64,000 nt of DNA from an uncultured virus (IMG/VR IMGVR_UViG_3300027754_000077) (Duplodnaviria > Heunggongvirae > Uroviricota > Caudoviricetes). Numbering within the stretch: position 1 is the first letter of the stretch; the number at the start of each line of letters is the position of its first letter. The notes under the pieces were generated by a model. It made no database searches, was not told the origin of the DNA, and saw nothing but the letters and a program-made list of their open reading frames with translations. The stretch lies in IMG/VR virus record IMGVR_UViG_3300027754_000077. The stretch is one strand, 5' to 3'. This document shows, piece after piece, positions 3,124 to 64,000 of this stretch. The translations under genes and the position numbers were made by a program.

Positions 3124-3575
3124 TGGATAATTACATTGAATTAGCATTACGAACAGATCCCTCTCCAGAGCAATACAAAATAATTGCGAAAAGATATGAA
3201 CAGCCAAATATAATGCGCCTTGAACATGCATTAAAAGGGATTGTTACAGAAGCTGGTGAGCTAATGGATCAATTAAAAAAACACATTGTTTATGGTAAAG
3301 AACTTGATTTAGTTAACTTAGCTGAAGAATGTGGTGACGTATTTTGGTATTTGGCTTTGTGCGTTACATGCTTAGCTGAACTTATGGACAGAGATCCTGC
3401 TGAGCTAGAAAACTCAATCAAAGAAACAAACATTGCAAAGTTAAAAGCTAGATATCCTGAAAAATTTACAGAATCTAATGCAGTTATTAGAAATTTAGAA
3501 ATAGAACGTGATATTTTGGATACAATCGAAGAAACTCAAAAAATGATTAGAAGAGGAGATGTTGGCAATGCCTAA
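3123..3575 (+). CDS. MazG-like NTP pyrophosphohydrolase
   Basis: GIVTEAGELMDQLKK...EECGDVFWY and NIAKLKARYP motifs typical of phage MazG-like proteins. Confidence 0.85.
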   Translation: MDNYIELALRTDPSPEQYKIIAKRYEQPNIMRLEHALKGIVTEAGELMDQLKKHIVYGKELDLVNLAEECGDVFWYLALCVTCLAELMDRDPAELENSIKETNIAKLKARYPEKFTESNAVIRNLEIERDILDTIEETQKMIRRGDVGNA

Positions 3576-8208: not shown

Positions 8209-8928
8209 ATGAATTCTACAGATTTTGAAATTTTTTACAACTGGAATAACTTAAACCGAACAAACGACAAAATACAATTACGCACCATTCAATCTAGAAT
8301 GGCGCCTTTACTTGAAAGAAAAGCTTTTACTTTACCTGAAATTGAAGAAATTTTAATTGCAGAGGGTTATAAAGAATCACTTGTAAAAGAGGCTATGCAG
8401 GCTAACAATAAAATCAGCGAAGCAGATCTTGAAATGAGTGTTGAAGCGGCAAATGGTGTGCCAAAGAAATATTCTGATATTTCGCACAAGTTTGAAAAAG
8501 TTTTGCAAGCACATGGTCCAACTAAATTTGTGAAACTTATGACTGAAGGCGAAAATCCTCTGCTTAAAATTTCTAAAAAAGAACGAGAAACTTTTCAAAA
8601 AATTGCAGATGTTGCTTACGAAAACCCAGTTCAACTAACAACCATGCATGCTTTTATTCAACCATCAATAATTTCTGAGCTTGCCGAAAATGTTTGTAGA
8701 GCAAGAAGAATTGCCCAAAAATGTAGCGTTGTAAAAACAGCAAAAGGCAATTTTACAATTACTCACAATGGAAAAAAAATAGAGGCATCAATCAAACCAG
8801 TGGAATCAACTTCAGAAAAATTTGCAAAATCTAACTATGGTGTTTTTGGTTTCCCCGACGAATATGTAATTTTAGCCTACGAACACAATTCTCCTTACGC
8901 TGAAATTAAAAAAGATTTAGGTCTTTAA
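8209..8928 (+). CDS. Hypothetical protein
   Basis: 239-aa ORF with genome-typical composition. Confidence 0.6.
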   Translation: MNSTDFEIFYNWNNLNRTNDKIQLRTIQSRMAPLLERKAFTLPEIEEILIAEGYKESLVKEAMQANNKISEADLEMSVEAANGVPKKYSDISHKFEKVLQAHGPTKFVKLMTEGENPLLKISKKERETFQKIADVAYENPVQLTTMHAFIQPSIISELAENVCRARRIAQKCSVVKTAKGNFTITHNGKKIEASIKPVESTSEKFAKSNYGVFGFPDEYVILAYEHNSPYAEIKKDLGL

Positions 8929-8930
8929 CT

Positions 8931-8964
8931 TTTATACAGGCTAAAATGAATTAGCCTGTATAAA
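8931..8964. terminator. Perfect 14-bp inverted repeat (possible terminator, overlapping a putative -10 element)
   Basis: TTTATACAGGCTAA-AATGAA-TTAGCCTGTATAAA between two genes. Confidence 0.5.
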
Positions 8965-33624: not shown

Positions 33625-34608
33625 TTATTGACCAAGACCCCAAAGTGGGTATTGAATCATAAGATTTGGATTTGCTCCAAGTCCAACAGTTCCACCAGTG
33701 AAACCTCTTAAAGTTCCAGCGTTGAGATTCATTCCGAAAGCCGGAGTTGCGCTAACACCATATTCAAATGCTGTCGGAGTGTTTGCAAGAAACTTACCAA
33801 GTTGATAATACTTAGCTGATCCATCAGCATGCCCTACAATAACTCCTTGGAATGCAGCTCTAAGCTCATCAGCTTGAGCATTTGGATTTGCAGAGTAATT
33901 TGCTACTTGCAGACCAAGCTCCCAAGCCCAATATTCTCTCACTGCGGGGGGGAATACCGTAACAGAATTAGAGGATGAATCTGTTCCATAGGCGATTGGA
34001 ACCACGCCAATTTGAAGATTTCCTGATTCCATAAGAATCCCTGCAGCTGATGTATTAGGAATAGCAGTCATAGAACCGCCTAGCCATGAATTTCTAAACA
34101 TGGTGGATGATCCAGCGGCACGATTCCAAGTATTAAGTTGACCTGTCAGAGACGTGTTAAGAAGATAACTTCCTGTTACCTGACCACATTGAGTCCAAGA
34201 GCCACTTGGACAGGAAGGCGTAGGAGCGTTAACATTGCCCCTTGATGTATTGAAGTACAACTGTACGTTTTTAACATAAGGTTGTGTCCATTTTTGCCAA
34301 GAGAAGTGATTCACACGATGCGCAAAACCTGCAGAAACACCACAATTTACTGTGGTTCCAGCCGGAATTGTATTTAAACTGCCATTCAAACTAGAGTTTG
34401 CAATACAGTCGTCATTGCGTGGATACATATCATCATTATCAGCACCATACATGGTGATACCAAGAGAAATTTGCTTTTGGTTACTAATACCTGCGGCTTT
34501 CTTAGCAGCAGCTTTTGCTTGTGCGAAAACTGGAAAGAGGATGGCGGCAAGGATAGCGATAATGGCAATTACTACGAGAAGTTCAATTAAAGTAAATGCT
34601 TTTTTCAC
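33625..34608 (-). CDS. Prepilin-type N-terminal cleavage/methylation domain protein
   Basis: KKAFTLIELLVVIAIIAILAAILFPVFAQAKAAAKK...SNQKQI.LG..MY..D.DD.YP and C-terminal GHADGSAK. Confidence 0.9.
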   Translation of the reverse strand: MKKAFTLIELLVVIAIIAILAAILFPVFAQAKAAAKKAAGISNQKQISLGITMYGADNDDMYPRNDDCIANSSLNGSLNTIPAGTTVNCGVSAGFAHRVNHFSWQKWTQPYVKNVQLYFNTSRGNVNAPTPSCPSGSWTQCGQVTGSYLLNTSLTGQLNTWNRAAGSSTMFRNSWLGGSMTAIPNTSAAGILMESGNLQIGVVPIAYGTDSSSNSVTVFPPAVREYWAWELGLQVANYSANPNAQADELRAAFQGVIVGHADGSAKYYQLGKFLANTPTAFEYGVSATPAFGMNLNAGTLRGFTGGTVGLGANPNLMIQYPLWGLGQ

Positions 34609-53440: not shown

Positions 53441-54104
53441 TTTTTCCCTCTATTTTTTCTAAATATTTAGGCACATAATCTGAACCTTCTTCCTCGCCAA
53501 TTAAACCAAAATTAACTAATTTATTTCTTGAAATTTCTGTATACACTGGTATATCTTCAAGCTCTGAACCAGAACGAGCTGCTGAAGAAATGACCCTCGG
53601 ATAATCCACGTCTAAATCCTTATATGCCTTAGAATGTGCATTATAAATCTCTATAAAATCTGGTTCATAAGGCGTGGATTGCCATCCAGCCACTGACCTT
53701 GCTTGACTTTTAGAAAGATCATAAAGCATAACTTTTCCATTTTGTTTTTTGCACAATTGTATAGCTTGTTGAATATTCAATCCAGGTTTTATGTTCTGTT
53801 GAATATTATAAAAAACTGCTTTTACACCATCTGAGCTCAGATAATCTTGACCAGGAATTACTTTTAAATCAATAGCGGTAGACTCCGCTTGTTTTTTTGC
53901 TATGTAACCAGTTTGAACACCAAACCTTGACACAATCCCAATTATATCCAAACCTTTGACAATTGCAGAAGATAGAATAGATTTAATTTTAGATTGAATT
54001 TCAGATTGATTTGCGGGCTCAAGCTCATCACCAAGATAAACACGTAAATCCATTCTTAGATTGTGTTTTCTTAATGCTGTTTTTAAAAATCCTGAATACC
54101 ACAC
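53433..54104 (-). CDS. PHP-fold-like protein with degenerate metal ligands and MWY N-terminus
   Basis: RMDLRVY, AIVKGLDIIGIV, VIPGQD, DFIEIYNA and SSAAR align with PHP motifs but lack the His/Glu/Asp ligands. Confidence 0.55.
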   Translation of the reverse strand: MWYSGFLKTALRKHNLRMDLRVYLGDELEPANQSEIQSKIKSILSSAIVKGLDIIGIVSRFGVQTGYIAKKQAESTAIDLKVIPGQDYLSSDGVKAVFYNIQQNIKPGLNIQQAIQLCKKQNGKVMLYDLSKSQARSVAGWQSTPYEPDFIEIYNAHSKAYKDLDVDYPRVISSAARSGSELEDIPVYTEISRNKLVNFGLIGEEEGSDYVPKYLEKIEGKNG

Positions 54105-54138
54105 ATAAATTATTTAAAGAAAAAAAGCTTCAAAGCCT

Positions 54139-54750
54139 TTAATTTCTTTTATTTCCGCATCCACCACAAAAGTTATCTGTTTCTAAATATTGTGAACCAC
54201 AATTTCTGCAAAATAAGTCTTTAATAGATTTAGTGCTTGTTTCTATAATTTTTCTTTCACTCACTGGAGCATCAGGAATGAAAACATTTTGTGAAATTGC
54301 TTTTCCATTAAAAGTTTCTGGTTCAATTACGTTTTGAGGTAAAATTTGCCCGTTTTTATCCACTCTTAAAGCTAAATCAACTTTAGCTGGTCTATAACCT
54401 AAATGTTGATTAAGATTTTTTATCACTTCCTCTTCTGTAAGATCGTCCAAACTCGTGTTCCAAGTATCTTGTTCTATTTCTTCTTCATGACTGTCAATAA
54501 TATTTTCTGAATCTTGCTTCTCATTTTCAGAATTTTGTGATAAATTCATGGCTTCACCAAGTTTATCCAAACTTTTTTTGAGTTGTTCTGAAGAATTATA
54601 AAACACTGCACCAAGACCGAGAATTGATCCATCAATACTTCCAGTGGGATCTGTTGCTTTTTTTGATGTGCCAGTTATTCCTGTGGCACCTTTCTGAAAA
54701 TTTGTGATTTTATCTTTTGCAAAAGATATTCGAGATGATTTATTTTCCAT
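54139..54750 (-). CDS. Protein with C-terminal zinc ribbon
   Basis: FCRNCG...NFCGGCG. Confidence 0.65.
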   Translation of the reverse strand: MENKSSRISFAKDKITNFQKGATGITGTSKKATDPTGSIDGSILGLGAVFYNSSEQLKKSLDKLGEAMNLSQNSENEKQDSENIIDSHEEEIEQDTWNTSLDDLTEEEVIKNLNQHLGYRPAKVDLALRVDKNGQILPQNVIEPETFNGKAISQNVFIPDAPVSERKIIETSTKSIKDLFCRNCGSQYLETDNFCGGCGNKRN

Positions 54751-54753
54751 ACA

Positions 54754-55086
54754 TTAAAATTGTGTAAACTGGTAACCCTTGATTTCTAAGTCTTTTTCTG
54801 TTGCGTCCATTTGTTTTAATACAGGCAAAAGTTTATTCATAATTTCTAATTCCCCCCAAGAAGGTGGCACATCAACTGTGAATGTTATTTTATGTGTTTT
54901 TTTCTGCTCAGATTGTGTTGAAGGGTTTGCGAAATTTTTAATGTTTGGATTTAATCCAAGATTTTCTGTTGAGTTGTTTGCGATAGATTGTGATAAATCT
55001 TGTGCAATTTTATTTAATTCACTCGATAAATCAGGTCGAGAGTGTTGAATAAGTGAAGCAGCTTTAAATAATTTTGAAAAAACCAT
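54754..55086 (-). CDS. Hypothetical protein
   Basis: First ORF of the minus-strand operon; LNKIAQ motif. Confidence 0.55.
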   Translation of the reverse strand: MVFSKLFKAASLIQHSRPDLSSELNKIAQDLSQSIANNSTENLGLNPNIKNFANPSTQSEQKKTHKITFTVDVPPSWGELEIMNKLLPVLKQMDATEKDLEIKGYQFTQF

Positions 55087-55308
55087 ATTTATATTTTACA
55101 AGAAAGAAAAAAAAATCCTTAAAAAAAATGACCTTCACTAATTAGGAAAAGAATATATTAATTAATCTTAATTAATCTAAATTAGAACTAAGGAAAAAAA
55201 AATATGTATAATAAAATAGAGAATGCCGTCAGTGTAAGGAAAAGGGCGTAAATATTCTCACACAATCTTAATTGAAGGTTAAAAACAATTTTTAAACAAA
55301 AATAAAAT

Positions 55309-55509
55309 ATGATTAGAGCTTACAACAAAATATTGAATATTGTAAATGACAATTTTAATATTGCTCTATCTGAAGATCATGGAGATTGTGATGATAGGAT
55401 TTCAAAAAATCTTATTGAAGAAGCAAAAATACATTGTATCGTTGATGTTTTAATTGAACATGGTTATGTTGATTCAAATCATAGAATTTTTCCAGATTTT
55501 ACTTCGTAA
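55309..55509 (+). CDS. Small hypothetical protein
   Basis: 66-aa ORF preceded by the AGGT-N17-CAAAA-N7 motif. Confidence 0.45.
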   Translation: MIRAYNKILNIVNDNFNIALSEDHGDCDDRISKNLIEEAKIHCIVDVLIEHGYVDSNHRIFPDFTS

Positions 55510-55518
55510 AGGATAAAA

Positions 55519-55935
55519 ATGAAAATAACTAAAACAATATTGAATTTAACTGCTTTTTTTGCTGTTTTTTCTTCTTCTTATTCACAAGCTACTTTTGGCA
55601 GACCACATATAAACTCTGTTATCGGACGAGTGAATGTTTTACCAAATGTAAGAGTGATTGATTTTGGAAGGTTGATATACCAAGGTAGAATGGATGTCAA
55701 TCCTACGGTAGAAAGAATTAGATTGGGTAAAAAATTAAACCACAATAATGATGGTACATTTTTTTCTAATTCCCTACGTAAACTTCCAGTAAGCACAGAT
55801 GTTCAATATTATAGAGAATTTGTCCATCAAATGAACGGTTTTCCTTTCCCAGGCTCACAAAGAGTGGTAATTGGAAAAAAAGGTGAAGTTTTTTATACAG
55901 GTGATCATTATTCAACTTTTTTTAGAGTAAGGTAA
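55519..55935 (+). CDS. Secreted guanyl-specific ribonuclease (T1/Sa/barnase superfamily)
   Basis: Signal peptide; DGTFFSN...LP, YYREF, GSQRVVIG, FYTGDHYSTF with the catalytic Glu/Arg/His. Confidence 0.85.
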   Translation: MKITKTILNLTAFFAVFSSSYSQATFGRPHINSVIGRVNVLPNVRVIDFGRLIYQGRMDVNPTVERIRLGKKLNHNNDGTFFSNSLRKLPVSTDVQYYREFVHQMNGFPFPGSQRVVIGKKGEVFYTGDHYSTFFRVR

Positions 55936-55954
55936 AATTGTGTATAAATAGTAC

Positions 55955-56962
55955 ATGAGTGAAATTGCATCTGAGAATAAATTAGTTGAAAAAACACAGT
56001 CTGAAAAAGCTATTTCAAAAAAAAATGAAGTGGATGATGAGCCAGAAAAAAGAATTATTTACTTAGCATCTGAATTACCTGGGGTCCCAGAAGTAATAGA
56101 TCTTATTAATTACGATACATCCCCACCTTACATTTCTATTTTTGAGGATAAAGAAGGATTTTTGGAAGCTGATGCTAGTCTTATTTATCAGGATGAGCGC
56201 AAAACACAACGCTTGCGTCCATTATCAGGCTCAAGCTTAGATTCGAAAATACCTAAGGAAAAGGATAAAACAACATTTCGAGAAAGATTATTACATAAAA
56301 AAAGTTCATTTCTGTCTAGAGCAATTTTTTTGATTAATCTTTTCTTTTTGAAAGAAAAATACTCAAATTTTTTCACGAATTTTAATTGGGGAATAGCCCC
56401 ACAGCTAATGCCAGAAGATGTTTTTCAAGCAAAAGTTTTGAACTTGACTAAGTTTAATCGCAATAAATTGATGAAAAAGCATGGCATCAGTGAAGCAGAA
56501 CTCAATTTTATTGCTTTTGCTAGGTTTCGTTATCCGTTTATAACAAGAGGTGAAGAAGAGTGGACAGAAATTGAAAAAAACGCCTTAGCATTCATTAAAA
56601 GAGGCTGGATATCAGAAGACATTAGGGGTAATTTCAAAATAAATGTTGGAAATGTTTACGAATTCAGAGATAGCATTATTTTTTCTGAGCAATTTAAAGA
56701 CATTATTTTCAAAAAAGTTTTTAAATCAAAGACTTTGCATAAGATTTTGAGGAAGATTGAAAGAAGTGCGAAAACTCAAGTTCACATTTATAATATCTCT
56801 CAAATTAGCAAACTTCCTTTCACACAATTCGGGAATAGCAATAGCTCTACACATTCTATTGTTGGTAAAAATGACTTAGAGGTGAGCAATTCAATCAAAA
56901 AAGAACCTATTTGTTTCACGAAAGATAGAATTTTAAAAGTAAAAAAAACTGAAACTTTTTAA
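55955..56962 (+). CDS. Hypothetical basic protein
   Basis: 335-aa ORF, no recognised motif. Confidence 0.55.
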   Translation: MSEIASENKLVEKTQSEKAISKKNEVDDEPEKRIIYLASELPGVPEVIDLINYDTSPPYISIFEDKEGFLEADASLIYQDERKTQRLRPLSGSSLDSKIPKEKDKTTFRERLLHKKSSFLSRAIFLINLFFLKEKYSNFFTNFNWGIAPQLMPEDVFQAKVLNLTKFNRNKLMKKHGISEAELNFIAFARFRYPFITRGEEEWTEIEKNALAFIKRGWISEDIRGNFKINVGNVYEFRDSIIFSEQFKDIIFKKVFKSKTLHKILRKIERSAKTQVHIYNISQISKLPFTQFGNSNSSTHSIVGKNDLEVSNSIKKEPICFTKDRILKVKKTETF

Positions 56963-57009
56963 AAGGTAATTACGTCTTATAATCATAATATTTAAAAAAG
57001 GAAACTAAA

Positions 57010-57063
57010 ATGACAAATTCGCTACGACATCTCTATCCAGCCTACGCACCCTCATCGGGGTAG
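57010..57063 (+). CDS. Putative attenuator leader peptide 1 (MTNSLRHLYPAYAPSSG)
   Basis: AAGGA RBS; 17 codons; upstream of a terminator and tRNA array 1; codons match the array tRNAs. Confidence 0.8.
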   Translation: MTNSLRHLYPAYAPSSG

Positions 57064-57090
57064 TGGCTAGTCGCGTATTTGACAAGCTAC

Positions 57091-57127
57091 AAACCCCCGA
57101 AGGACAAAAACTTTCGGGGGTTTTTTT
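57091..57127 (+). terminator. Attenuator terminator upstream of tRNA array 1
   Basis: AAACCCCCGAAGG-ACAAAAA-CTTTCGGGGG-T7. Confidence 0.9.
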
Positions 57128-57132
57128 ATTAT

Positions 57133-57145
57133 GAACATTGACAAT
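57133..57145 (+). promoter_or_regulatory. boxA-like element
   Basis: GAACATTGACAAT; a counterpart occupies the equivalent position in leader 2. Confidence 0.45.
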
Positions 57146-57243
57146 TAAATATCGTGGTGGTACCAAGGTTGAATTAAACTCTCTCTAAGTGGTGACCCGT
57201 AAGTGGATGACTAAGGACGCCCTTCATCCAGCCGAAAATTCAT

Positions 57244-57322
57244 CTACATGTTGAGGAGTTTGGCTTACCTCGCAATCCTTGGGAGATTGAGTACGCTGGT
57301 TCAAATCCAGCCATGTAGACCA
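57244..57322 (+). tRNA. tRNA-Pro(TGG)
   Basis: Acceptor CTACATG/CATGTAG, anticodon arm CAATC-CTTGGGA-GATTG, T arm, encoded CCA. Confidence 0.9.
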
Positions 57323-57327
57323 AGTTT

Positions 57328-57412
57328 GGGGATATCGCATAGCGGCAATTGCAGAAGACTGTAAATCTTCTATCGAAAGATTTCGTAGGTTCGAGTCCTA
57401 CTGTCCCCACCA
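57328..57412 (+). tRNA. tRNA-Tyr(GTA)
   Basis: GGGGATA/TGTCCCC, GAAGA-CTGTAAA-TCTTC, long variable arm, CCA. Confidence 0.92.
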
Positions 57413-57419
57413 AATTTTC

Positions 57420-57498
57420 GTGAAATGGGACTGCTGGGGGTGGTCGCCAAGCTTGCACCTTGGATATCAGGTGGGTTCGAATCCCACATTTTACACCA
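57420..57498 (+). tRNA. tRNA-Ala(TGC)
   Basis: GTGAAAT/ATTTTAC with G3:U70, CCAAG-CTTGCAC-CTTGG, CCA. Confidence 0.88.
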
Positions 57499-57502
57499 TA
57501 AT

Positions 57503-57585
57503 ACCGAAGTGGCGTAATGTAGCCGCGATAGTCTTAGAAACTATTGTCTTTTGACGTGTGGGTTCAAATCCCACCTTCGGTACCA
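57503..57585 (+). tRNA. tRNA-Leu(TAG)
   Basis: ACCGAAG/CTTCGGT, ATAGT-CTTAGAA-ACTAT, long variable arm, CCA. Confidence 0.92.
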
Positions 57586-57588
57586 CAT

Positions 57589-57665
57589 AAGTGAGTAGCT
57601 TAAATGGTAGAGCTCTTTGGTTGTGACCCAGAGGCGCGTGGGTTCAAATCCCACCTCACTGACCA
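57589..57665 (+). tRNA. tRNA-His(GTG), atypical acceptor end
   Basis: TTTGG-TTGTGAC-CCAGA with good D and T arms; 1:72 mismatch and A73; the 3' end overlaps the stop of an antisense ORF. Confidence 0.7.
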
Positions 57666-57979
57666 TTTTTTAAATCATAAAATATTCTTGGAACATATTT
57701 AAAGTTCATGAAATTCATTTGTTGTGTATTTTTTTCTTCATTAAATAAAGGCTCTTCAATAACTGCTGGTGGTTCAGGTATAGGTGGCTTTATAAGCGCA
57801 GGCTCGTTAGCAGGCGAATTTTGTTTTTGGTTATATTCTCTTCCTAAAATTTTACAGGTTTCACAAGTGTTTCCAGTAAATTGCCAGATTGTGTTCCCCC
57901 CTGGCATTTGTTCAATGTAGCATTTGCAACCTTCATGTACCGGAGGTAGAATTTTTTTTTGAGAATATCTATACCACAC
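57656..57979 (-). CDS. MWY-leader protein with MuF/gp7-like PPxHxxCxC motif
   Basis: MWYRYSQ start; LPPVHEGCKCYI; CETC. Confidence 0.6.
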   Translation of the reverse strand: MWYRYSQKKILPPVHEGCKCYIEQMPGGNTIWQFTGNTCETCKILGREYNQKQNSPANEPALIKPPIPEPPAVIEEPLFNEEKNTQQMNFMNFKYVPRIFYDLKNGQ

Positions 57980-58014
57980 AATCTGAATTTACTAATTTTT
58001 TATTGGATATCCTG

Positions 58015-59727
58015 CTAAGTTGAGGGTCTATACCACGGGAATAAGGTCCCCAACTGTTTTTTAATCTTATCTGATATATTTGGATTAATTTCAAGACTAT
58101 AAGGATTTATGCGACCAAATTCTGCAAATTCTTTGATGAATCTTTCAGACAATTTTTGGTTACGTGAAATCACAGTCCAATCCACACGGTCTGCAAAATC
58201 TTTGATCAAATCCTCAGACAATTTTTGGTGCCATGAAATTTCCTTCCAATTCACACGGTCTGCAAATTCTATGATGAAATCCTCAGACAATTTTTGTTTA
58301 GCTGAAATACTCCACCAATCCACACGGTTTTTAAATTCTCTGATGAATTCTTCAGATAGTGGTTGTTTACGTGAAATTTCATTCCAATCCACGCGGTCTG
58401 CAAATGTTCTAATTACTTTTTCAGGTATTGGATAATTCTTCAAGACTTTATCCATGTCTAAACTGTCTTCGAAATCTAAAATAAAATCTCCAGATAGTGT
58501 TTGGTATTGTGAAATTATGTCCCAATCCAAACTGTCTGCAAATTCACGAATGAATTCTTCAGACAATAGTGGGCGGCTTGAAATCAAATCCCAAGCTACA
58601 CGATCTGCACTTAATCCCTTACTAAACAAGTATCTCAGCATTTCTTCTGGTGCGTTAACATAATAAAAATTATAATTATTTATACCTTTTTCATTTATGA
58701 TTTCATCAATTAATTCAAAATCTCCAGATCTCAAAGCATAGTCTTTTACACGCCAATCATCATTCCCAAGATGTTTTTTAATCTCTTCTATTGCAATGTT
58801 TCTTCTTCTGTTATAAGTGGCTCTGTATTGATTATTGCCAAAAAGCATAGCTTTTTGGCTTGGAGGGATACTAATTCCTGTATTAAGATATTGTTCAATC
58901 AAAAAATCAGCTGTATTATTTGATGTCACAGATTGTAAATTAATAATAGACTCTAATTGTTGATCAGTTAAAAGATGCCCCCTGCCTATATATTTAGATT
59001 TATATTCTGCTGGCAACTCTTCAAACCAATTTGGTGTAACATTTCTTTTTCCTAATAATTCATTTTCTTTTCTTTCTTCTTCTGTTACGGGTTTATTTAC
59101 AAATATTGATGTATCTACACCATTTTGTCTAAGATAATCAAAATAAGTTTCATAATCATTGCCAAACTCAGCTATTGTCCCAGTTTGATTATTTTTGTCA
59201 GTAAGTTTTACGATACCTTTTGCTTGCATATCAACCATCACTCTTGATAATGGATCTTCTGGTGGTCTTGTCCCATCACTTACATAGTAAAAAGTGGATT
59301 GGTAATTATCCCTGTAGGATTGAAACATTGTATTTCCAGGTTGTGATATACACCATGATGTTCCTGCACCATATCTAATTGTATCGTTAACACTATTACA
59401 AGCAAATACTTGTATCTCTCCAGGTGTAAAATTAATTTTTTCTTTAGTTAATTCTTTTTGTTCTTTTTTTTGTTTTAAAAAAATCAATTCAGTATAAAGA
59501 GCGTCCACTGCTTCGGTAAATTCAAGAAAATCTGTGTAAAATTTATTATCGAACATCACTCCATCTTTTCTTAATTCTATAATTGGAAGTTTATTTGCTT
59601 TATCAAGCTCATTTAGTCTCTCACTAAGTTGGGAAGTATTGTGCCCTTGATTACTGAAATAATCTGCAATCTTCCTTATTATATGTTCTTTGCCAGCTAT
59701 AATTATTTTTGCAAATCTATACCACAC
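58015..59727 (-). CDS. MWY-leader protein with YGAGTSWCI domain and C-terminal 22-aa Trp repeats (paralog A)
   Basis: Repeats of the form DWxxISxxQxLSEDFIxEFADRV; N-terminal half highly similar to 59798-61543. Confidence 0.8.
   Translation of the reverse strand: MWYRFAKIIIAGKEHIIRKIADYFSNQGHNTSQLSERLNELDKANKLPIIELRKDGVMFDNKFYTDFLEFTEAVDALYTELIFLKQKKEQKELTKEKINFTPGEIQVFACNSVNDTIRYGAGTSWCISQPGNTMFQSYRDNYQSTFYYVSDGTRPPEDPLSRVMVDMQAKGIVKLTDKNNQTGTIAEFGNDYETYFDYLRQNGVDTSIFVNKPVTEEERKENELLGKRNVTPNWFEELPAEYKSKYIGRGHLLTDQQLESIINLQSVTSNNTADFLIEQYLNTGISIPPSQKAMLFGNNQYRATYNRRRNIAIEEIKKHLGNDDWRVKDYALRSGDFELIDEIINEKGINNYNFYYVNAPEEMLRYLFSKGLSADRVAWDLISSRPLLSEEFIREFADSLDWDIISQYQTLSGDFILDFEDSLDMDKVLKNYPIPEKVIRTFADRVDWNEISRKQPLSEEFIREFKNRVDWWSISAKQKLSEDFIIEFADRVNWKEISWHQKLSEDLIKDFADRVDWTVISRNQKLSERFIKEFAEFGRINPYSLEINPNISDKIKKQLGTLFPWYRPST
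58110..58600 (-). repeat. Degenerate 66-bp tandem coding repeats
   Basis: Recurrent ccaatccacacggtctgcaaa..tttgatgaaatcctcagacaa units; boundaries approximate. Confidence 0.8.
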
Positions 59728-59797
59728 AATCTGAATTTCCTAAATTTGTATCGGATATCCTGCTGCTTTCAGATTGTGTTTGGTTTGGTCTGAGATG

Positions 59798-61543
59798 TTA
59801 GGGTTTTTTAAATTTTAGCTTGTAATAAACATTGAGTTTGGTTTGTCTTGAGATTTTAGGGTTTTGTGAAATCCCATCCCAACTCAAACGTTCTGCAAAT
59901 TCTTTGATGAAATCCTCCGATAGTGTTTGATTGAATGAAATCCCGCGCCAATCCACACTATCTGCAAATTCACGAATGAATTCTTCAGATAGTGTTTGTT
60001 TTTTTGAAATATTATACCAATTCACCTTATCTTTGAATTTTCTGATAAAATCTTCGGATAGTGTTTGGTAATGTGAAATATTACCCCAACCCAAACGACC
60101 TGCAAAATCTTTGATGAAATCCTCAGATAGTTTTTGACGCCGTGGAATTTCATCCCAAATCACACGGTCTACAAAATTTCTAATTATTTTTTCAGGTATT
60201 GGATAATTCCTCAAGACTTTATCCATGTCTAAACGTTTAGCAAATTCTAAAATAAAATCTCCAGATAGATTTTGGTAAGAGGAAATATAATTCCAATACA
60301 CATCATCTTTGTATCTTCTGATAAAATCTTCAGATAGTATTTGCATTCGTGAAATCTCAAACCAACCAAGACGATCTTGAAATTCTTCAATAAAATTTTC
60401 AGATAGTGAATTGTCTGAAACCCACTCCCAAGCTACATTATCTGCACTTAATCCCTTGCTGAACAAGTATCTCAGCATTTCTTCGGGTGCTTTTATATCA
60501 TAAAAATTTCTTATGTCTTTTTCATTTATGATTTCATCAATTAATTCAAAATCTCCATGTTCTAAAGCATATCTTGTTAGACTATACTTATCATTCCCAA
60601 ACTCTTCTTTAATCTCTTTTATTGCAATTGCTCTTCTTCTGTCATAAGTGTCTTTGTATTGTTTTTTGCCAAAAAGCATATCTTTTTGACTTTGAGGAAT
60701 ACTAACTCCTGTATTAAGATATTGTTCAATCAAATATCCAGATATTGTTGGTAAATTAATAATGAATTTTAATTGTTCATCCGTTAAAAGATGTCCTCTT
60801 CCTATATATTTAAGTTGTAATTTTAATGGTAACTTTTCAAACCAATTTGGTGTAACATTTCTGTATTCTAATAATTCATTTTCATTTATTTCTTCTTCTG
60901 TTAGAGTTTTATTTACAAATTGTGATGTATCTACACCGTTTTTTCTAAGATAATCAAAATAAGCTTCATGATCTTCGTCAAACTCAGCTATTGTCCCAGT
61001 GCGATTATTTTTGTCCGTAAGTTTTACGATACCATTTGCTTGCATATCAACCATCACTCTTGATAATGGATCTTCTGGTGGTCTGGTGCCATCATTTACA
61101 TAGTAAAAAGTAGATTGGTATTTATTCTTATAGGATTGAAATTCTGTATTTCCAGGCTGTGATATACACCAACTTGTTCCTGCGCCATATCTAATTGCGT
61201 CATTGACATCATTGCAGGCAACTACTTGTATCTTTCCTGGTACAAAATCAATTTTTTCTTTAGTTAATTCTTTTTGTTCTTTTATTTGTTTGGAGAAAAC
61301 TAATATAGTATGAAGAGCATCTACAGCTTCGGTAAATTTAAGAAAATCTGTGTAAATGTTATTATCAAACATCACTCCATCTTTTCTTAATTCTATAATT
61401 GGAAGTTTATTTGCTTTATCAAGCTCATTTAGTCTCTCACTAAGTTGGGAAGGATCCTGCCCTTGATCGCTAAAATATTCTGCAATCTTCCTTATTATAT
61501 GTTCTTTGCCAGCTATAATTATTTTTGCAAATTTATACCACAC
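59798..61543 (-). CDS. MWY-leader protein with YGAGTSWCI domain and C-terminal 22-aa Trp repeats (paralog B)
   Basis: Tandem duplicate of 58015-59727 with a different repeat set. Confidence 0.8.
   Translation of the reverse strand: MWYKFAKIIIAGKEHIIRKIAEYFSDQGQDPSQLSERLNELDKANKLPIIELRKDGVMFDNNIYTDFLKFTEAVDALHTILVFSKQIKEQKELTKEKIDFVPGKIQVVACNDVNDAIRYGAGTSWCISQPGNTEFQSYKNKYQSTFYYVNDGTRPPEDPLSRVMVDMQANGIVKLTDKNNRTGTIAEFDEDHEAYFDYLRKNGVDTSQFVNKTLTEEEINENELLEYRNVTPNWFEKLPLKLQLKYIGRGHLLTDEQLKFIINLPTISGYLIEQYLNTGVSIPQSQKDMLFGKKQYKDTYDRRRAIAIKEIKEEFGNDKYSLTRYALEHGDFELIDEIINEKDIRNFYDIKAPEEMLRYLFSKGLSADNVAWEWVSDNSLSENFIEEFQDRLGWFEISRMQILSEDFIRRYKDDVYWNYISSYQNLSGDFILEFAKRLDMDKVLRNYPIPEKIIRNFVDRVIWDEIPRRQKLSEDFIKDFAGRLGWGNISHYQTLSEDFIRKFKDKVNWYNISKKQTLSEEFIREFADSVDWRGISFNQTLSEDFIKEFAERLSWDGISQNPKISRQTKLNVYYKLKFKKP
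59860..60435 (-). repeat. Degenerate 66-bp tandem coding repeats
   Basis: Same repeat family as in paralog A; boundaries approximate. Confidence 0.8.
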
Positions 61544-61632
61544 AATCTGAATTTCAAGAAAAAAATAAAAAAACCTAATTTTTACAGAACAAATAGGAGA
61601 TTGTGTCGTATATATATAATAAGGAAATAATT

Positions 61633-61698
61633 ATGAAATTAAATTTGCAGGGCAGTATTGGATGTTTTATGTGGTCAACCCAAGGGGGTAGTGGCTAA
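61633..61698 (+). CDS. Putative attenuator leader peptide 2 (MKLNLQGSIGCFMWSTQGGSG)
   Basis: AAGGA RBS; 21 codons; upstream of a terminator and tRNA array 2; codons match the array tRNAs. Confidence 0.8.
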   Translation: MKLNLQGSIGCFMWSTQGGSG

Positions 61699-61725
61699 AA
61701 TCCTGCTGTAAGCAAAATTTTCACC

Positions 61726-61764
61726 AAAATCCCTGAAGACCAAAAAAACTTCAGGGATTTTTTT
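61726..61764 (+). terminator. Attenuator terminator upstream of tRNA array 2
   Basis: AAAATCCCTGAAG-ACCAAAAAAA-CTTCAGGGA-T7. Confidence 0.9.
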
Positions 61765-61766
61765 AT

Positions 61767-61779
61767 GTACTTTGACAAT
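61767..61779 (+). promoter_or_regulatory. boxA-like element
   Basis: GTACTTTGACAAT, similar to rrn boxA GCTCTTTAACAAT. Confidence 0.5.
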
Positions 61780-61789
61780 AAAATAATGA

Positions 61790-61865
61790 GCGATATTGAT
61801 GTTAATGGTTAGCATACCTGGCTTCCAACCAGATTGTGTCAGTTCAAGTCTGACATATCGCTCCA
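61790..61865 (+). tRNA. tRNA-Gly(TCC)
   Basis: GCGATAT/ATATCGC, CTGG-CTTCCAA-CCAG, U73, CCA. Confidence 0.92.
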
Positions 61866-61869
61866 ATAT

Positions 61870-61945
61870 GGATTTCAGGTGTAGCTGGTGTGCACGAAGC
61901 GCTGAAGACGCTTAGGATAGAGTTCAATTCTCTGGGAATCCACCA
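61870..61945 (+). tRNA. tRNA-Phe(GAA)
   Basis: GGATTTC/GGAATCC, AAGCG-CTGAAGA-CGCTT, CCA. Confidence 0.9.
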
Positions 61946-61955
61946 AATTTTTTAA

Positions 61956-62042
61956 GGAAGGTAATGCTGAATGGTTTTGGCGAATGTTTGCTAAACATTT
62001 CGGACTGAAAGGTCTCTGGTTCAATTCCAGTGCCTTCCTCCA
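61956..62042 (+). tRNA. tRNA-Ser(GCT)
   Basis: GGAAGGT/GCCTTCC, AATGT-TTGCTAA-ACATT, long variable arm, CCA. Confidence 0.88.
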
Positions 62043-62106
62043 TATACGGGGAGTGACCAGTTGGCTCTGTGCAGGAGTGGTTTTATTAAGTTTTGAATAT
62101 TCACAT

Positions 62107-62613
62107 ATGAGAAAACCAAACACTCAATGCTCAATCTGCTCGAATGAAATTTATCGCAGACCATTTCAAATAAAAGCACAAATAAAATTTTATTGTTCTA
62201 GTTGTAATCCATCTAAAAAAACAAATAAACTTGCAGAAAAGAAATGCCCAGTGTGTCAAAATTTTTTCAAACCAGATAGTTCAAAATCTACATTTTGTAG
62301 TCGTAGTTGTTCAAATAAAAGCCGTTGTGGAATTCATTACCGCAAAGATGGAAATGTATGGAATAATAAATCTAAACTCAGATTGTCAATACTTTTGACT
62401 GAGTTTGCTATTACATCTTGTATGGTTGAGGGATGCAACTATAATATCACTTATGATATTCATAGACACATACCTGGAAAAGAAGGTGGTGAATATAAAA
62501 TAGGAAATATGTTTGCTATCTGCCCAAACCATCATGCAGAGGTTTCTCGCGGTATAATTATTTTGGAAAAAGTAAGCGATAGTAAATTAAAAATAAAGGA
62601 AGTGCTGTCATAG
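62107..62613 (+). CDS. HNH endonuclease with N-terminal Zn-finger motifs, inside tRNA array 2
   Basis: CSIC, CPVC..FCSRSC; DIHRHIPGKEGGEYKIGNMFAICPNHHAEV. Start at ATG 62107 because the upstream in-frame part overlaps a tRNA. Confidence 0.85.
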   Translation: MRKPNTQCSICSNEIYRRPFQIKAQIKFYCSSCNPSKKTNKLAEKKCPVCQNFFKPDSSKSTFCSRSCSNKSRCGIHYRKDGNVWNNKSKLRLSILLTEFAITSCMVEGCNYNITYDIHRHIPGKEGGEYKIGNMFAICPNHHAEVSRGIIILEKVSDSKLKIKEVLS

Positions 62614-62684
62614 GTGTGATAAACCGTCTTGAAAACGGCTGGGCTGATAAGGTCTTGAGAGTTCGAATCTCTCCGCTTCCGCCA
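62598..62684 (+). tRNA. tRNA-Ser(TGA); 5' 16 nt overlap the HNH coding end
   Basis: GGAAGTG/CGCTTCC, CCGT-CTTGAAA-ACGG, long variable arm, G73, CCA. Confidence 0.85.
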
Positions 62685-62691
62685 AGTTTAT

Positions 62692-62765
62692 GTTGTCTCT
62701 AGCTCAGTTGGTAGAGCGTCCCACTGCAGGGGAAGGCGAAGGTTCAATTCCTTCGGGCAACACCA
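62692..62765 (+). tRNA. tRNA-like gene with irregular anticodon arm (undetermined, possible pseudogene)
   Basis: Canonical D arm GCTCAGTTGGTAGAGC, T arm and CCA; TCCC-ACTGCAG-GGGA lacks U33 in a 7-nt loop. Confidence 0.55.
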
Positions 62766-62771
62766 TTTTAC

Positions 62772-62858
62772 TGAGGAATAGTGTAATTGGTAACACGCTA
62801 GGTTTTGACCCTAGAGACATATTTGCTTGTCCACGTTCGAATCGTGGTTCCTCAGCCA
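62772..62858 (+). tRNA. tRNA-Gln(TTG) with long variable region
   Basis: TGAGGAA/TTCCTCA, CTAGG-TTTTGAC-CCTAG, G73, CCA. Confidence 0.85.
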
Positions 62859-62859
62859 T

Positions 62860-62934
62860 ATCCGAGTAGCTCAATGGCAGAGCATAATCTATATAAGATT
62901 GAGGTTTTTGGTTCAAATCCAAATTCGGATACCA
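62860..62934 (+). tRNA. tRNA-Ile(TAT), atypical (A33)
   Basis: ATCCGAG/TTCGGAT, TAATC-TATATAA-GATTG, CCA. Confidence 0.65.
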
Positions 62935-62939
62935 ATTTC

Positions 62940-63013
62940 GGCAAATTAGCTTAATGGTAGAGCGCAGATTTCATACATCTAAGACAAAAGTTCGATTCTT
63001 TTATTTGCCCCCA
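62940..63013 (+). tRNA. tRNA-Met(CAT), elongator type
   Basis: GGCAAAT/ATTTGCC, AGAT-TTCATAC-ATCT, no initiator features; Ile2 identity not excluded. Confidence 0.8.
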
Positions 63014-63016
63014 AAC

Positions 63017-63090
63017 GCACGATTAGCCAAGAGGCAAGGCGAGGGTCTGCAAAATCCTGATCACTGGTTCAAGTCCAGTATCGTGCTCCA
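63017..63090 (+). tRNA. tRNA-Cys(GCA)
   Basis: GCACGAT/ATCGTGC, AGGGT-CTGCAAA-ATCCT, U73, CCA. Confidence 0.92.
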
Positions 63091-63093
63091 TAT

Positions 63094-63167
63094 ACCAGAG
63101 AGAGTAGGTTGTTCCAATAGGTCTTCGAAACCTTTTTGCCTGGGTTCAAATCCCAGCTCTGGTGCCA
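63094..63167 (+). tRNA. tRNA-Arg(TCG), weak D arm
   Basis: ACCAGAG/CTCTGGT, AGGT-CTTCGAA-ACCT, T arm, CCA. Confidence 0.78.
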
Positions 63168-63274
63168 TTTTTATTTGATGGGTATTTGATAAAAACGTTT
63201 TTTTTCTGTTTTTTAGATTCAAAAATTCTCTTTTTTTATTTGATGGTCATTTGATTACCTTCACACAAAACAAA

Positions 63275-63583
63275 TTATGAGACCAGCTCAATTGTGTGTG
63301 GTGCATTTTCTGAAATGTTAAATAGCCCATTTCCCAATTCATATTTCTTACCAAGGTCATCAATAAATGTTTGAAATTCCATTTCAAGTTTTTCTATCAT
63401 TTCTTGATTAGCTCTAAATTCTTCTTGCAAAGAAGCCATTTGTTTTTCTACATTTCTCAACATGTCAAATATGTCAGAGCGCTTGCCTTTCAAGTTTAAT
63501 ACCCCAGAACGAAGCTGTGCATAATTATTAAATTCTTCTTTAGTTAAAGCTTTTTCAGATTGTGTAGATGAGTTAAATTTCAT
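63275..63583 (-). CDS. Coiled-coil hypothetical protein
   Basis: 102-aa helical ORF. Confidence 0.55.
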   Translation of the reverse strand: MKFNSSTQSEKALTKEEFNNYAQLRSGVLNLKGKRSDIFDMLRNVEKQMASLQEEFRANQEMIEKLEMEFQTFIDDLGKKYELGNGLFNISENAPHTIELVS

Positions 63584-63592
63584 AAATTTATT

Positions 63593-64000
63593 TTACAATT
63601 TTTTTGCTCTAACCAGTTCAAATTTTGCCCCTGTTTTTTCGCAAACATTTCTTAAGAAAATCCATGCATTACCAGCTTCATCCACTTCTGCCACAGGTGT
63701 GGAGTAACCCTTTAAGCCATTCATCCAAATTACATTATCACCTAACTTGGTTAACGCAAAGTTTTTGGGCATTAATTTATTGATAAAAGCTCTTGCTGGA
63801 ATAATGGTTCTTGAATTTTCTACTCTAGTTTGTGACCAAATAAAAACATTTGATTCAAAAGTAATTTCAAATACAGGATTTGTCCATGAATCCACTCCAT
63901 CACCATTATAGATTTGGTAAAATTTATTAACTTCTTTAATGAATGTTGGTTTATCCACTAATTTGCCTGGACATGTTTTGTTCGTCAATGGGTCATCTCT
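63593..64000 (-). CDS. Hypothetical protein (start probably beyond window edge)
   Basis: ORF reported from 63988; the frame is open to the window end. Confidence 0.5.
   Translation of the reverse strand, partial: RDDPLTNKTCPGKLVDKPTFIKEVNKFYQIYNGDGVDSWTNPVFEITFESNVFIWSQTRVENSRTIIPARAFINKLMPKNFALTKLGDNVIWMNGLKGYSTPVAEVDEAGNAWIFLRNVCEKTGAKFELVRAKKL

What the first reader, a model, noticed from the sequence alone, without database searches (positions are those of the whole stretch)
57010..57127. Leader 1 has mutually exclusive 1:2, 2:3 and 3:4 pairings of a classical attenuator
Seen by manual pairing. 1:2 is AGCC-TAC-(GCA)-CCC (57039-57051) with GGG-GTA-(GT)-GGCT (57057-57068). The 2:3 antiterminator is TCGGGG (57055-57060) with CCCCGA (57095-57100), plus TAGT with GCTA (57086-57089). 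The 3:4 terminator is CCCCCGAAGG/CTTTCGGGGG followed by T7. The stop codon TAG lies inside segment 2, so a ribosome that finishes the peptide would block the antiterminator, while one stalled on the earlier L-R-H-L-Y-P codons would leave it free. This is the geometry expected for attenuation.
Basis: partly seen in the sequence, partly recalled or inferred. Interest (0 to 1): 0.85.

Follow-up and report, generated by a model that had tools for sequence, protein, structure and literature searches.

The report
Leader-peptide attenuator gating phage tRNA genes
A giant uncultured phage puts a tiny translated "test" gene, spelled in the amino acids of the five tRNA genes behind it, and a switchable transcription stop in front of those genes, so it probably makes these tRNAs only when ribosomes read those codons slowly; this switch is textbook for amino-acid synthesis genes, but I found no paper describing it for tRNA genes.

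Summary
The three helices are real: 1:2 -13, 2:3 -25, 3:4 -21 kcal/mol. In a footprint model, stalls at codons 2-10/11 leave the antiterminator free and a finishing ribosome blocks it, as for E. coli thrL. This finding's text omits what is controlled: five tRNA genes of a jumbo phage (Pro, Tyr, Ala, Leu, His). Nine of leader codons 5-14 encode those amino acids, none of the other six. Six orthologues keep all 19 antiterminator pairs, without two-sided compensatory changes. A codon-blind scan of 18 records gave 28 leaders before tRNA blocks. Leader residues match their own block (0/100000 permutations), only in frame, and upstream of the last six codons. Each leader pairs better with its own terminator arm than permuted pairs do. 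Best reading (0.85): a ribosome-sensing attenuator that makes spare tRNAs on demand. The trigger (tRNA destruction or low charging) is unresolved, and there is no expression evidence. Nine literature searches found no report. This scan has already noted the same class in at least 93 other genomes.

The parts
56950..56983 (+). Candidate promoter: TGAAAC-N17-CGTCT (ECF-sigma-like; that consensus is recalled), overlapped by TATAAT at 56978-56983; overlaps the end of the upstream ORF 55955-56962
   Evidence: [T/A]GAAAC-N17-CGTCT in 6 of 6 leader-1 orthologues while the spacer varies; start site not mapped; a similar, stricter pattern is not enriched in the window as a whole (3 found, shuffled mean 2.1)
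56998..57002 (+). Shine-Dalgarno-like AAGGA, 7 nt before the ATG
   Evidence: Sequence; AGGA kept in all six orthologues
57010..57063 (+). Leader ORF, 17 codons, MTNSLRHLYPAYAPSSG*; sensing stretch codons 5-14 (57022-57051)
   Evidence: 9 of 10 residues in codons 5-14 are Leu/His/Tyr/Pro/Ala, 0 of 6 outside; frame, length and all five residues kept in 6 of 6 orthologues
57039..57068 (+). 1:2 hairpin (pause / anti-antiterminator candidate)
   Evidence: -13.1 kcal/mol; 95.5% of cells paired in 6 orthologues, 3 of 11 pairs broken in one sequence each
57050..57103 (+). 2:3 antiterminator, 19 bp in two helices
   Evidence: -24.6 kcal/mol; 114 of 114 cells paired in 6 orthologues, 3 pairs vary on one side, none on both
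57091..57127 (+). 3:4 intrinsic terminator, 13 bp with 7 G-C pairs, followed by U7
   Evidence: one of 2 terminator-like sites in 54000-64000
57133..57144 (+). boxA-like element GAACATTGACAA just after the terminator (GT[AT]CTTTGACAA after leader 2)
   Evidence: Kept in 14 of 14 leader-1 and leader-2 orthologues; the hexamer 17 nt after its TTGACA varies freely, so not a sigma-70 promoter. Resembles E. coli rrn boxA UGCUCUUUA (PMC6614797, passage); Nus binding untested
57150..57243 (+). Unidentified 94-nt non-coding element between terminator and first tRNA, in 3 of 6 orthologues
   Evidence: no Rfam family assigned to it; fold not better than shuffles
57244..57665 (+). Regulated tRNA block: Pro(UGG) 57244-57322, Tyr(GUA) 57328-57412, Ala(UGC) 57420-57498, Leu(UAG) 57503-57585, His(GUG) 57589-57665
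   Evidence: ARAGORN; Rfam RF00005
61633..61768 (+). Leader 2, a second attenuator: ORF MKLNLQGSIGCFMWSTQGGSG* 61633-61698, terminator 61726-61761
   Evidence: in-frame 3-nt indel among orthologues and a two-sided terminator change in L086 (read by eye); its 2:3 duplex alone is not above shuffles (149 of 300)
61790..63167 (+). tRNA block 2: Gly, Phe, Ser(GCU; Rfam hit, anticodon read by eye), Ser(UGA), Ala-called, Gln, Ile-called, Met, Cys, Arg-called; an ORF lies between the two Ser genes
   Evidence: 14 of 20 leader-2 residues cognate, expected 0.42

Best explanation
A ribosome-mediated transcription attenuator that turns on a block of phage tRNA genes when their codons are read slowly. (1) RNA polymerase starts near 56985 [inferred from a conserved promoter-like motif]. 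(2) A ribosome loads at the SD/ATG and follows it, with 1:2 as the likely pause hairpin [inferred by analogy]. (3) If charged Leu, His, Tyr, Pro and Ala tRNAs are plentiful, the ribosome runs to the UAG in segment 2, covers UCGGGG, the 3:4 hairpin forms and transcription ends at 57127 [folding shown in a model]. (4) If any of them is short, the ribosome stalls in codons 5-11, covers segment 1 but not segment 2, and 2:3 forms before segment 4 is out, so polymerase reads on [folding shown in a model; stall inferred]. (5) A boxA-like site then probably loads Nus factors to carry polymerase through untranslated RNA [inferred]. (6) The new Pro, Tyr, Ala, Leu and His tRNAs relieve the stall and close a negative feedback loop [inferred]. 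The most likely trigger is loss of host tRNA (anticodon nucleases or general degradation during infection), because more tRNA repairs that and because 1-2 codons per amino acid need a hard stall.
For: Helices and footprint profile like thrL. Leader 1 holds all 5 amino acids of its block, 9 of 16 residues versus 0.24 expected; 4 of 6812 16-aa windows of the window's proteins do as well. Across 28 leaders found without regard to codons in 18 records: own-block match sum z 77.3 versus permuted 4.8 +/- 7.3, 0 of 100000; without close kin n=22, 66.9 versus 2.1, 0 of 100000; six leaders of G036, unseen when the detector was written, rank 1 of 720 assignments. Cognate residues 216 of 353 upstream versus 21 of 114 in the last six codons; 0.20 and 0.17 in the other two frames. 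Leader end pairs with its own terminator arm at -12.7 versus -8.7 permuted, 0 of 100000. Two phages have one 40- or 48-codon leader holding all 20 amino acids before a near-complete array (P 0.001 and 0.008 on window background, 0.03 and 0.12 on uniform). No conserved promoter between terminator and tRNAs. Phage tRNAs are known to rescue infection from tRNA-cutting defences (PMC11555353 passages; PMC7824862 passages).
Against: No transcription, translation or probing data. Leader-1 orthologues are 89% alike and show no two-sided compensatory change. At full-length equilibrium the terminator always wins. Codon-level match to the block's anticodons is weak: 67 of 110 versus 58.2 expected, z 1.8; leader 1 scores 2 of 4. 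L134 has lost Leu, His and Ala genes to an inserted ORF yet keeps those leader codons. Own block is the best-scoring block for only 12 of 28 leaders, and three detected leaders match poorly and look like false calls. Leader 2's 2:3 duplex is not above shuffles. Five of 18 records (G003, G004, G005, G040, G049) have tRNAs but no detected leader.
Confidence: 0.85

Rival explanations
1. Same attenuator, but its signal is amino-acid starvation or synthetase overload (low charging), not tRNA loss; extra tRNA would tilt charging towards phage-preferred isoacceptors. This is a sub-case of the best explanation and its confidence is conditional on it.
For: The match is much stronger by amino acid than by anticodon; L125 and L134 use CUU and CCG, not matched to Leu(UAG) under plain wobble for CUU. 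A stalled ribosome cannot tell uncharged from missing tRNA. Isoacceptor concentration sets charging under starvation (PMC1183508 passages).
Against: More tRNA supplies no amino acid. Few codons per amino acid give low sensitivity to mild starvation (PMC1183508). The block groups five amino acids with no shared pathway.
Confidence: 0.35
2. A general translation-speed or coupling sensor: any slowdown (stress, antibiotics, shutdown) opens the block, and the codon match is incidental or a relic.
For: All-20-amino-acid leaders in G033 and G034 must act as general sensors; in the model a stall at non-cognate codons 2-4 also frees 2:3.
Against: Block-specific leaders such as MYATTKTTKTTKTTKK.. before Thr/Lys and MSVQVQQNNQNNQ.. 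before Gln/Asn in one genome; permutation 0 of 100000.
Confidence: 0.08
3. An ordinary terminator that ends the upstream gene; the ORF and 2:3 are chance, and the tRNAs come from their own promoter (TTGACA at 57138) or from fixed leakage.
For: ORF 55955-56962 has no other terminator before 57091; a perfect TTGACA follows the U-tract; at equilibrium the terminator dominates.
Against: No conserved -10 box at the right distance in 14 of 14 orthologues; SD, ORF length and 19 of 19 antiterminator pairs conserved; family-wide codon and pairing statistics.
Confidence: 0.05
4. The 17-residue peptide or the terminated RNA of about 140 nt is itself the functional product.
For: The ORF is conserved; released attenuator RNAs can act in trans (PMC6614838, search listing and start of abstract only).
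Against: Peptides before different blocks are unrelated and track the block's amino acids; residues swap at codons 5-12 among orthologues.
Confidence: 0.02

Closest known systems
Multivalent leader-peptide attenuators of amino-acid operons (E. coli thrL, ilvGMEDA, also trpL, hisL, leuL, pheL; Rfam His_leader RF00514, Phe_leader RF01859)
   Same: Short leader ORF with cognate codons, alternative 1:2, 2:3 and 3:4 helices, U-tract terminator 20-30 nt after the stop; thrL gives the same footprint profile.
   Different: Controls tRNA genes of a phage, not biosynthetic enzymes (PMC1183508 defines the codons as cognate to the amino acid the operon makes; passages). Five amino acids with 1-2 codons each, not runs. 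Not homologous: 26.8 bits against a gathering score of 49 for His_leader, 19.2 against 55 for Phe_leader.
E. coli pheST attenuator (pheM leader) (recalled, from no call)
   Same: An attenuator that senses a charged tRNA and controls the machinery supplying it.
   Different: Its target is a synthetase gene for one amino acid; here the product is the tRNAs themselves.
Phage tRNAs as counter-defence (T5/SP15 tRNA-Tyr against retron-Eco7, PMC11555353; T5 tRNA against PARIS, PMC11464382)
   Same: Phage-encoded tRNA blocks that can replace host tRNAs.
   Different: In PMC11555353 the tRNA is driven by a strong promoter; 'attenuat' and 'leader' occur 0 times in its main text. PMC11464382 seen as search listing only.
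T-box riboswitches (recalled, from no call)
   Same: tRNA-responsive terminator/antiterminator switch.
   Different: T-boxes bind uncharged tRNA directly and need no ribosome; no T-box match at the gathering score or at E up to 10 here.

Membership tests
Ribosome-mediated transcription attenuator (mechanistic class) | Short leader ORF with a ribosome-binding site upstream of the regulated genes | tested here: met
   17 codons, AAGGA 7 nt before ATG, kept in 6 of 6 orthologues
Ribosome-mediated transcription attenuator (mechanistic class) | Regulatory codons cognate to what the downstream genes supply | tested here: met
   9 of 16 residues, all 5 amino acids of the tRNA block; family permutation 0 of 100000; weak at codon level
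Ribosome-mediated transcription attenuator (mechanistic class) | Intrinsic terminator between leader and genes | tested here: met
   13-bp hairpin plus U7, 57091-57127
Ribosome-mediated transcription attenuator (mechanistic class) | Antiterminator exclusive with the terminator, free when stalled on regulatory codons and blocked at the stop | tested here: met
   Computed only: footprint model with A-site +9 and +12 (assumed values), thrL control alike
Ribosome-mediated transcription attenuator (mechanistic class) | Compensatory base changes supporting 2:3 within the orthologous family | tested here: inconclusive
   100% paired, 3 one-sided and 0 two-sided changes in 6 close sequences; support comes from unrelated leaders
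Ribosome-mediated transcription attenuator (mechanistic class) | Polymerase pause at 1:2, leader translation, and read-through that depends on it | not testable with these tools
   Only assembled contigs from RNA runs were available
Amino-acid operon leaders (trpL, hisL, thrL, leuL, pheL; Rfam leader families) | Downstream genes are biosynthetic or synthetase genes for the sensed amino acid | tested here: not met
   Downstream are five tRNA genes
Amino-acid operon leaders (trpL, hisL, thrL, leuL, pheL; Rfam leader families) | Rfam model score at or above the gathering threshold | tested here: not met
   His_leader 26.8 of 49; Phe_leader 19.2 of 55
T-box riboswitch | Match to the Rfam T-box models | tested here: not met
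   No match
rrn-type boxA antitermination site | boxA-like sequence ahead of untranslated RNA that binds NusB/NusE | tested here: inconclusive
   Motif conserved in 14 of 14, partial match to UGCUCUUUA; host rRNA leader not found in G031 or G032; binding untested

The most novel reading that the evidence does not exclude
These jumbo phages carry a modular tRNA-loss surveillance system: tRNA genes are sorted into blocks, and each block has its own leader that reads out those codons, so a ribosome stalled by a host anticodon nuclease or by tRNA decay switches on exactly the replacement set. It would be an inducible, self-limiting counter-defence built from RNA alone, and the leader sequences would list which tRNAs each host attacks or lacks.
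Probability: 0.5. Interest if true: 0.9.

Novelty: new variant of a known kind. Interest (0 to 1): 0.8.

Why it matters
Why phages carry tRNA genes is a long-standing question, and recent work ties them to escape from tRNA-cutting defences, with expression put down to strong promoters. A codon-matched attenuator means that some phages measure tRNA supply and answer block by block. It extends leader-peptide attenuation from enzyme genes to tRNA genes, where the product itself relieves the stall. It also makes the question testable in an ordinary laboratory strain: a 180-nt leader fused to a reporter can tell tRNA loss from amino-acid starvation, codon by codon.

Tried and rejected
No whole genome is held for the window, so the phage's other tRNA loci are known only from relatives. 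The upstream protein 55955-56962 found no relatives in viral contigs and no Pfam family. INPHARED phages hold no leader homologue (one tRNA-only hit); the nearest named capsid is Bacillus phage G at 49%. RNA runs: 3 listed, all kept as contigs, shares 0.07-0.22; pieces fell on 56950-57599 and one 151-nt contig spans the terminator, but contigs cannot show strand, ends or level, so I draw nothing from them. No 16S gene in G031 or G032, so the boxA idea could not be compared with a host rRNA leader. The promoter-like motif is not enriched window-wide. A Val codon / Val tRNA covariation in leader 2 looked neat for the window and G001 but fails in G002, which has Val(UAC) and no Val codon. Covariation counts on leader 1 were uninformative. 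The 94-nt element gave no family or covariation. A pattern for the Gln/Arg/Cys leader found only the two records it came from. The alignment had one row misplaced and was redone. Literature: nine searches aimed at prior reports listed none on leader attenuators of tRNA genes; the tenth was for boxA. I read listings and starts of abstracts, and passages of five papers; subscription journals and all supplements were not seen.

Full report
Setting. The window is part of a jumbo tailed-phage genome: ribonucleotide reductase-like, terminase-like, portal-like and capsid genes (named by eye from the ORF list), two sigma-70-family proteins (Pfam) and 14 tRNA genes. The capsid protein is 95% identical to that of a 347-kb IMG/VR record (G001) and 49% to Bacillus phage G. 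The host is uncertain. A 70% capsid relative lies in a 1.36-Mb contig of an Armatimonadota genome and a 67% relative in a Fimbriimonas bin, but 92% and 75% relatives lie on 7-8 kb contigs of Bacteroidetes and Bacteriovoracaceae bins, which may be misbinned.

1. Observation. The 1:2 hairpin folds at -13.1, the 2:3 antiterminator at -24.6 and the terminator at -20.8 kcal/mol. The 2:3 fold is longer than described: 19 pairs, from 57050 to 57103. Only its outer nine pairs exclude the terminator. The stop codon sits at 57061-63, between the two 2:3 helices. Rfam has no family for it: His_leader scores 26.8 bits against a cut-off of 49.

2. Does the switch work on paper? I masked the RNA up to 9 or 12 nt past the ribosomal A site (assumed values) and folded the rest, with the terminator's 3' arm hidden, 5 nt out, or fully out. 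For stalls at codons 2 to 10 or 11 the G/C bases of the terminator's 5' arm are paired upstream with P about 0.86. The value falls to 0.2-0.7 over the next three codons and to about 0 at codons 14-16, with up to 0.27 at codon 17 or the stop. With the whole 3' arm out the terminator always wins. E. coli thrL, run the same way, gives 1.0 falling to 0 at the stop and also loses at full-length equilibrium; hisL fits less cleanly. So the leader behaves like a proven attenuator in this model, and the switch has to be kinetic.

3. What it controls. Behind the terminator lie tRNA-Pro(UGG), Tyr(GUA), Ala(UGC), Leu(UAG) and His(GUG). The leader reads MTNSLRHLYPAYAPSSG. Nine of the ten residues at codons 5-14 are Leu, His, Tyr, Pro or Ala, and none of the other six. 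Of 6812 16-residue windows in 13 window proteins, 59 hold all five residues and 4 also reach nine. A second leader at 61633-61768 precedes the second tRNA block, with 14 of 20 residues cognate; both share GGGGTAGTGGCTA in different reading frames.

4. Orthologues. A pattern scan of viral and metagenome contigs gave 103 pattern hits in the window and the 91 listed loci (11 viral, 80 of 117 metagenome stretches); 29 had a tRNA within 400 nt, 16 distinct, one of them a chance hit without a leader. Six distinct leader-1 sequences keep the SD, the 17-codon frame and all five residues. All 114 cells of the 2:3 structure are paired, with three one-sided and no two-sided changes; 1:2 is 95.5% paired. 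These sequences are 89% alike, so this is weak support. G002 has an extra Leu(GAG) gene and two CUC codons, but the window also has a CUC without that gene. L134 has lost Leu, His and Ala genes to an inserted ORF and keeps the codons. A [T/A]GAAAC-N17-CGTCT motif precedes 6 of 6 leaders, and a boxA-like motif follows the terminator in 14 of 14 leader-1 and leader-2 sequences, with no conserved -10 box behind its TTGACA.

5. The class in related phages. I located tRNA genes in 54 records reached by capsid similarity (33 matches were not listed) and fetched the tRNA regions of 17 of them; six records with one to three tRNAs (G010, G016, G025, G037, G039, G043) and G032 were not fetched. A detector blind to codon content (terminator within 400 nt of a tRNA; ATG ORF of 10-60 codons ending shortly before it) found 53 terminators, 29 with an ORF, in the window and these 17 records. 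One duplicate call was dropped, leaving 28 in 13 records; likely false calls were kept. The detector was tuned after I had seen the window, G001-G007 and most of G014, but before G031-G049. Leader residues match their own block far better than permuted blocks: sum z 77.3 against 4.8 +/- 7.3, 0 of 100000; with G001, G002 and G031 removed, 66.9 against 2.1 (n=22); six G036 leaders rank first of 720 assignments. Examples: MYATTKTTKTTKTTKKRVASGGLLS before Thr x3, Lys x3; MSVQVQQNNQNNQALEGFGRLFSA before Gln, Asn, Asn, Gln, Gln; MRYNRNIMVMAIVVAAAIIAEDVLT before Met, Val, Ile, Ala. G033 and G034 each have one leader with all 20 amino acids before a near-complete array. In 19 leaders, cognate residues are 216 of 353 upstream and 21 of 114 in the last six codons, peaking 11-16 codons before the stop; the other frames give 0.20 and 0.17. 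The end of each leader pairs with its own terminator arm at a mean of -12.7 against -8.7 permuted, 0 of 100000, though it is the single best partner for only 8 of 28 arms. Against: the match at codon level is weak (67 of 110, 58.2 expected); the background came from the window's proteins for all records; five records show no leader; the detector missed some leaders seen by eye in G007.

6. Mechanism. The best reading is the attenuator set out under Best explanation (0.85). Shown: sequence anatomy, conservation, codon match, computed folding. Inferred: start site, pause, translation, read-through, Nus loading, feedback. Within it, I put tRNA loss ahead of starvation as the selected trigger (about 60 to 35), because more tRNA mends the first and one or two codons per amino acid make a poor sensor of mild starvation (PMC1183508, passages). 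The weak codon-level match pulls the other way.

7. Relation to what is known. It works like thrL or ilv leaders but is not a member of any Rfam leader family, and its targets are tRNA genes. Phage tRNAs are known to offset tRNA-cutting defences (PMC11555353 and PMC7824862, passages; 'attenuat' and 'leader' occur 0 times in either main text). Nine searches of the open library found no account of leader attenuators before tRNA genes; subscription papers and supplements were not seen. The boxA role rests on passages of PMC6614797 and PMC12360218; the ECF promoter consensus, pheST and T-box comparisons are recalled. This scan has already noted the same class in at least 93 other genomes; those notes came after my own tests and are not evidence.

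8. Verdict. Observation confirmed; interpretation supported and extended. A new variant of a known kind of switch, on a new kind of target, with strong comparative support and no experimental proof. Interest 0.8.

Noticed in passing
window 57150-57243; L162, L086: A conserved 94-nt non-coding element between terminator and tRNA-Pro in 3 of 6 orthologues, with a 7-bp UGGAUGA/UCAUCCA hairpin; no Rfam family, fold not above shuffles.
   Followed up: partly
window 62692-62765, 62860-62934, 63094-63167: Three block-2 tRNAs have odd anticodon loops compared with orthologues: the Ala-called gene reads TGC, CGC or TAC in different phages; the Ile gene reads TAT where relatives have GAT; the Trp orthologue reads TCG (Arg) while leader 2 keeps its TGG codon. 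Decay, anticodon change or assembly error.
   Followed up: partly
window 62108-62613; L134 2814-3600; L125 and L086 in block 2: ORFs with Cys-pair and HNH-like motifs (read by eye; no Pfam hit for the window ORF) sit inside the tRNA blocks at different places; in L134 one replaces three tRNA genes.
   Followed up: partly
L073 + 3158-3197, L076 +, L072 + 8850-8945, L080 -: Lys-rich and Gln/Arg/Cys leaders before matching tRNAs in G006, G007 and G014 have no clear intrinsic terminator; they may act through Rho or another route.
   Followed up: no
G001 (L067-L070), G003-G005 (L081-L084): Other tRNA genes (Met, Asp, Asn, Thr, Lys, Arg, Glu in G001) lie directly behind a (C/G)GTATAAT promoter-like motif with no leader, so one genome holds both gated and ungated tRNAs.
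   Followed up: no
L305 + (G033), L307 - (G034): Single leaders of 40 and 48 codons that contain all 20 amino acids, ahead of near-complete tRNA arrays.
   Followed up: partly
G031:C5 (L299-L304), capsid at 136766-138596: A related phage region with leader-headed tRNA blocks lies in a 1.36-Mb Armatimonadota contig, possibly a very large prophage.
   Followed up: partly
L073, L075, L309: CUA-anticodon (amber suppressor-like) tRNA genes in G006, G007 and G035.
   Followed up: no
window 58015-59727 and 59798-61543 (- strand): Two paralogous 570-580 aa ORFs with C-terminal 23-residue (69-nt) repeats; these and several other ORFs start with a GTG-WY(R/K/S) motif. No Pfam hit for the one tested.
   Followed up: no
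window 33625-34608 (- strand): ORF with a prepilin-type N-terminal methylation motif (PF07963), probably taken from a host.
   Followed up: partly
window 55519-55935: Secreted-looking ORF with a Pfam ribonuclease match (PF00545) 1.1 kb upstream of leader 1.
   Followed up: no
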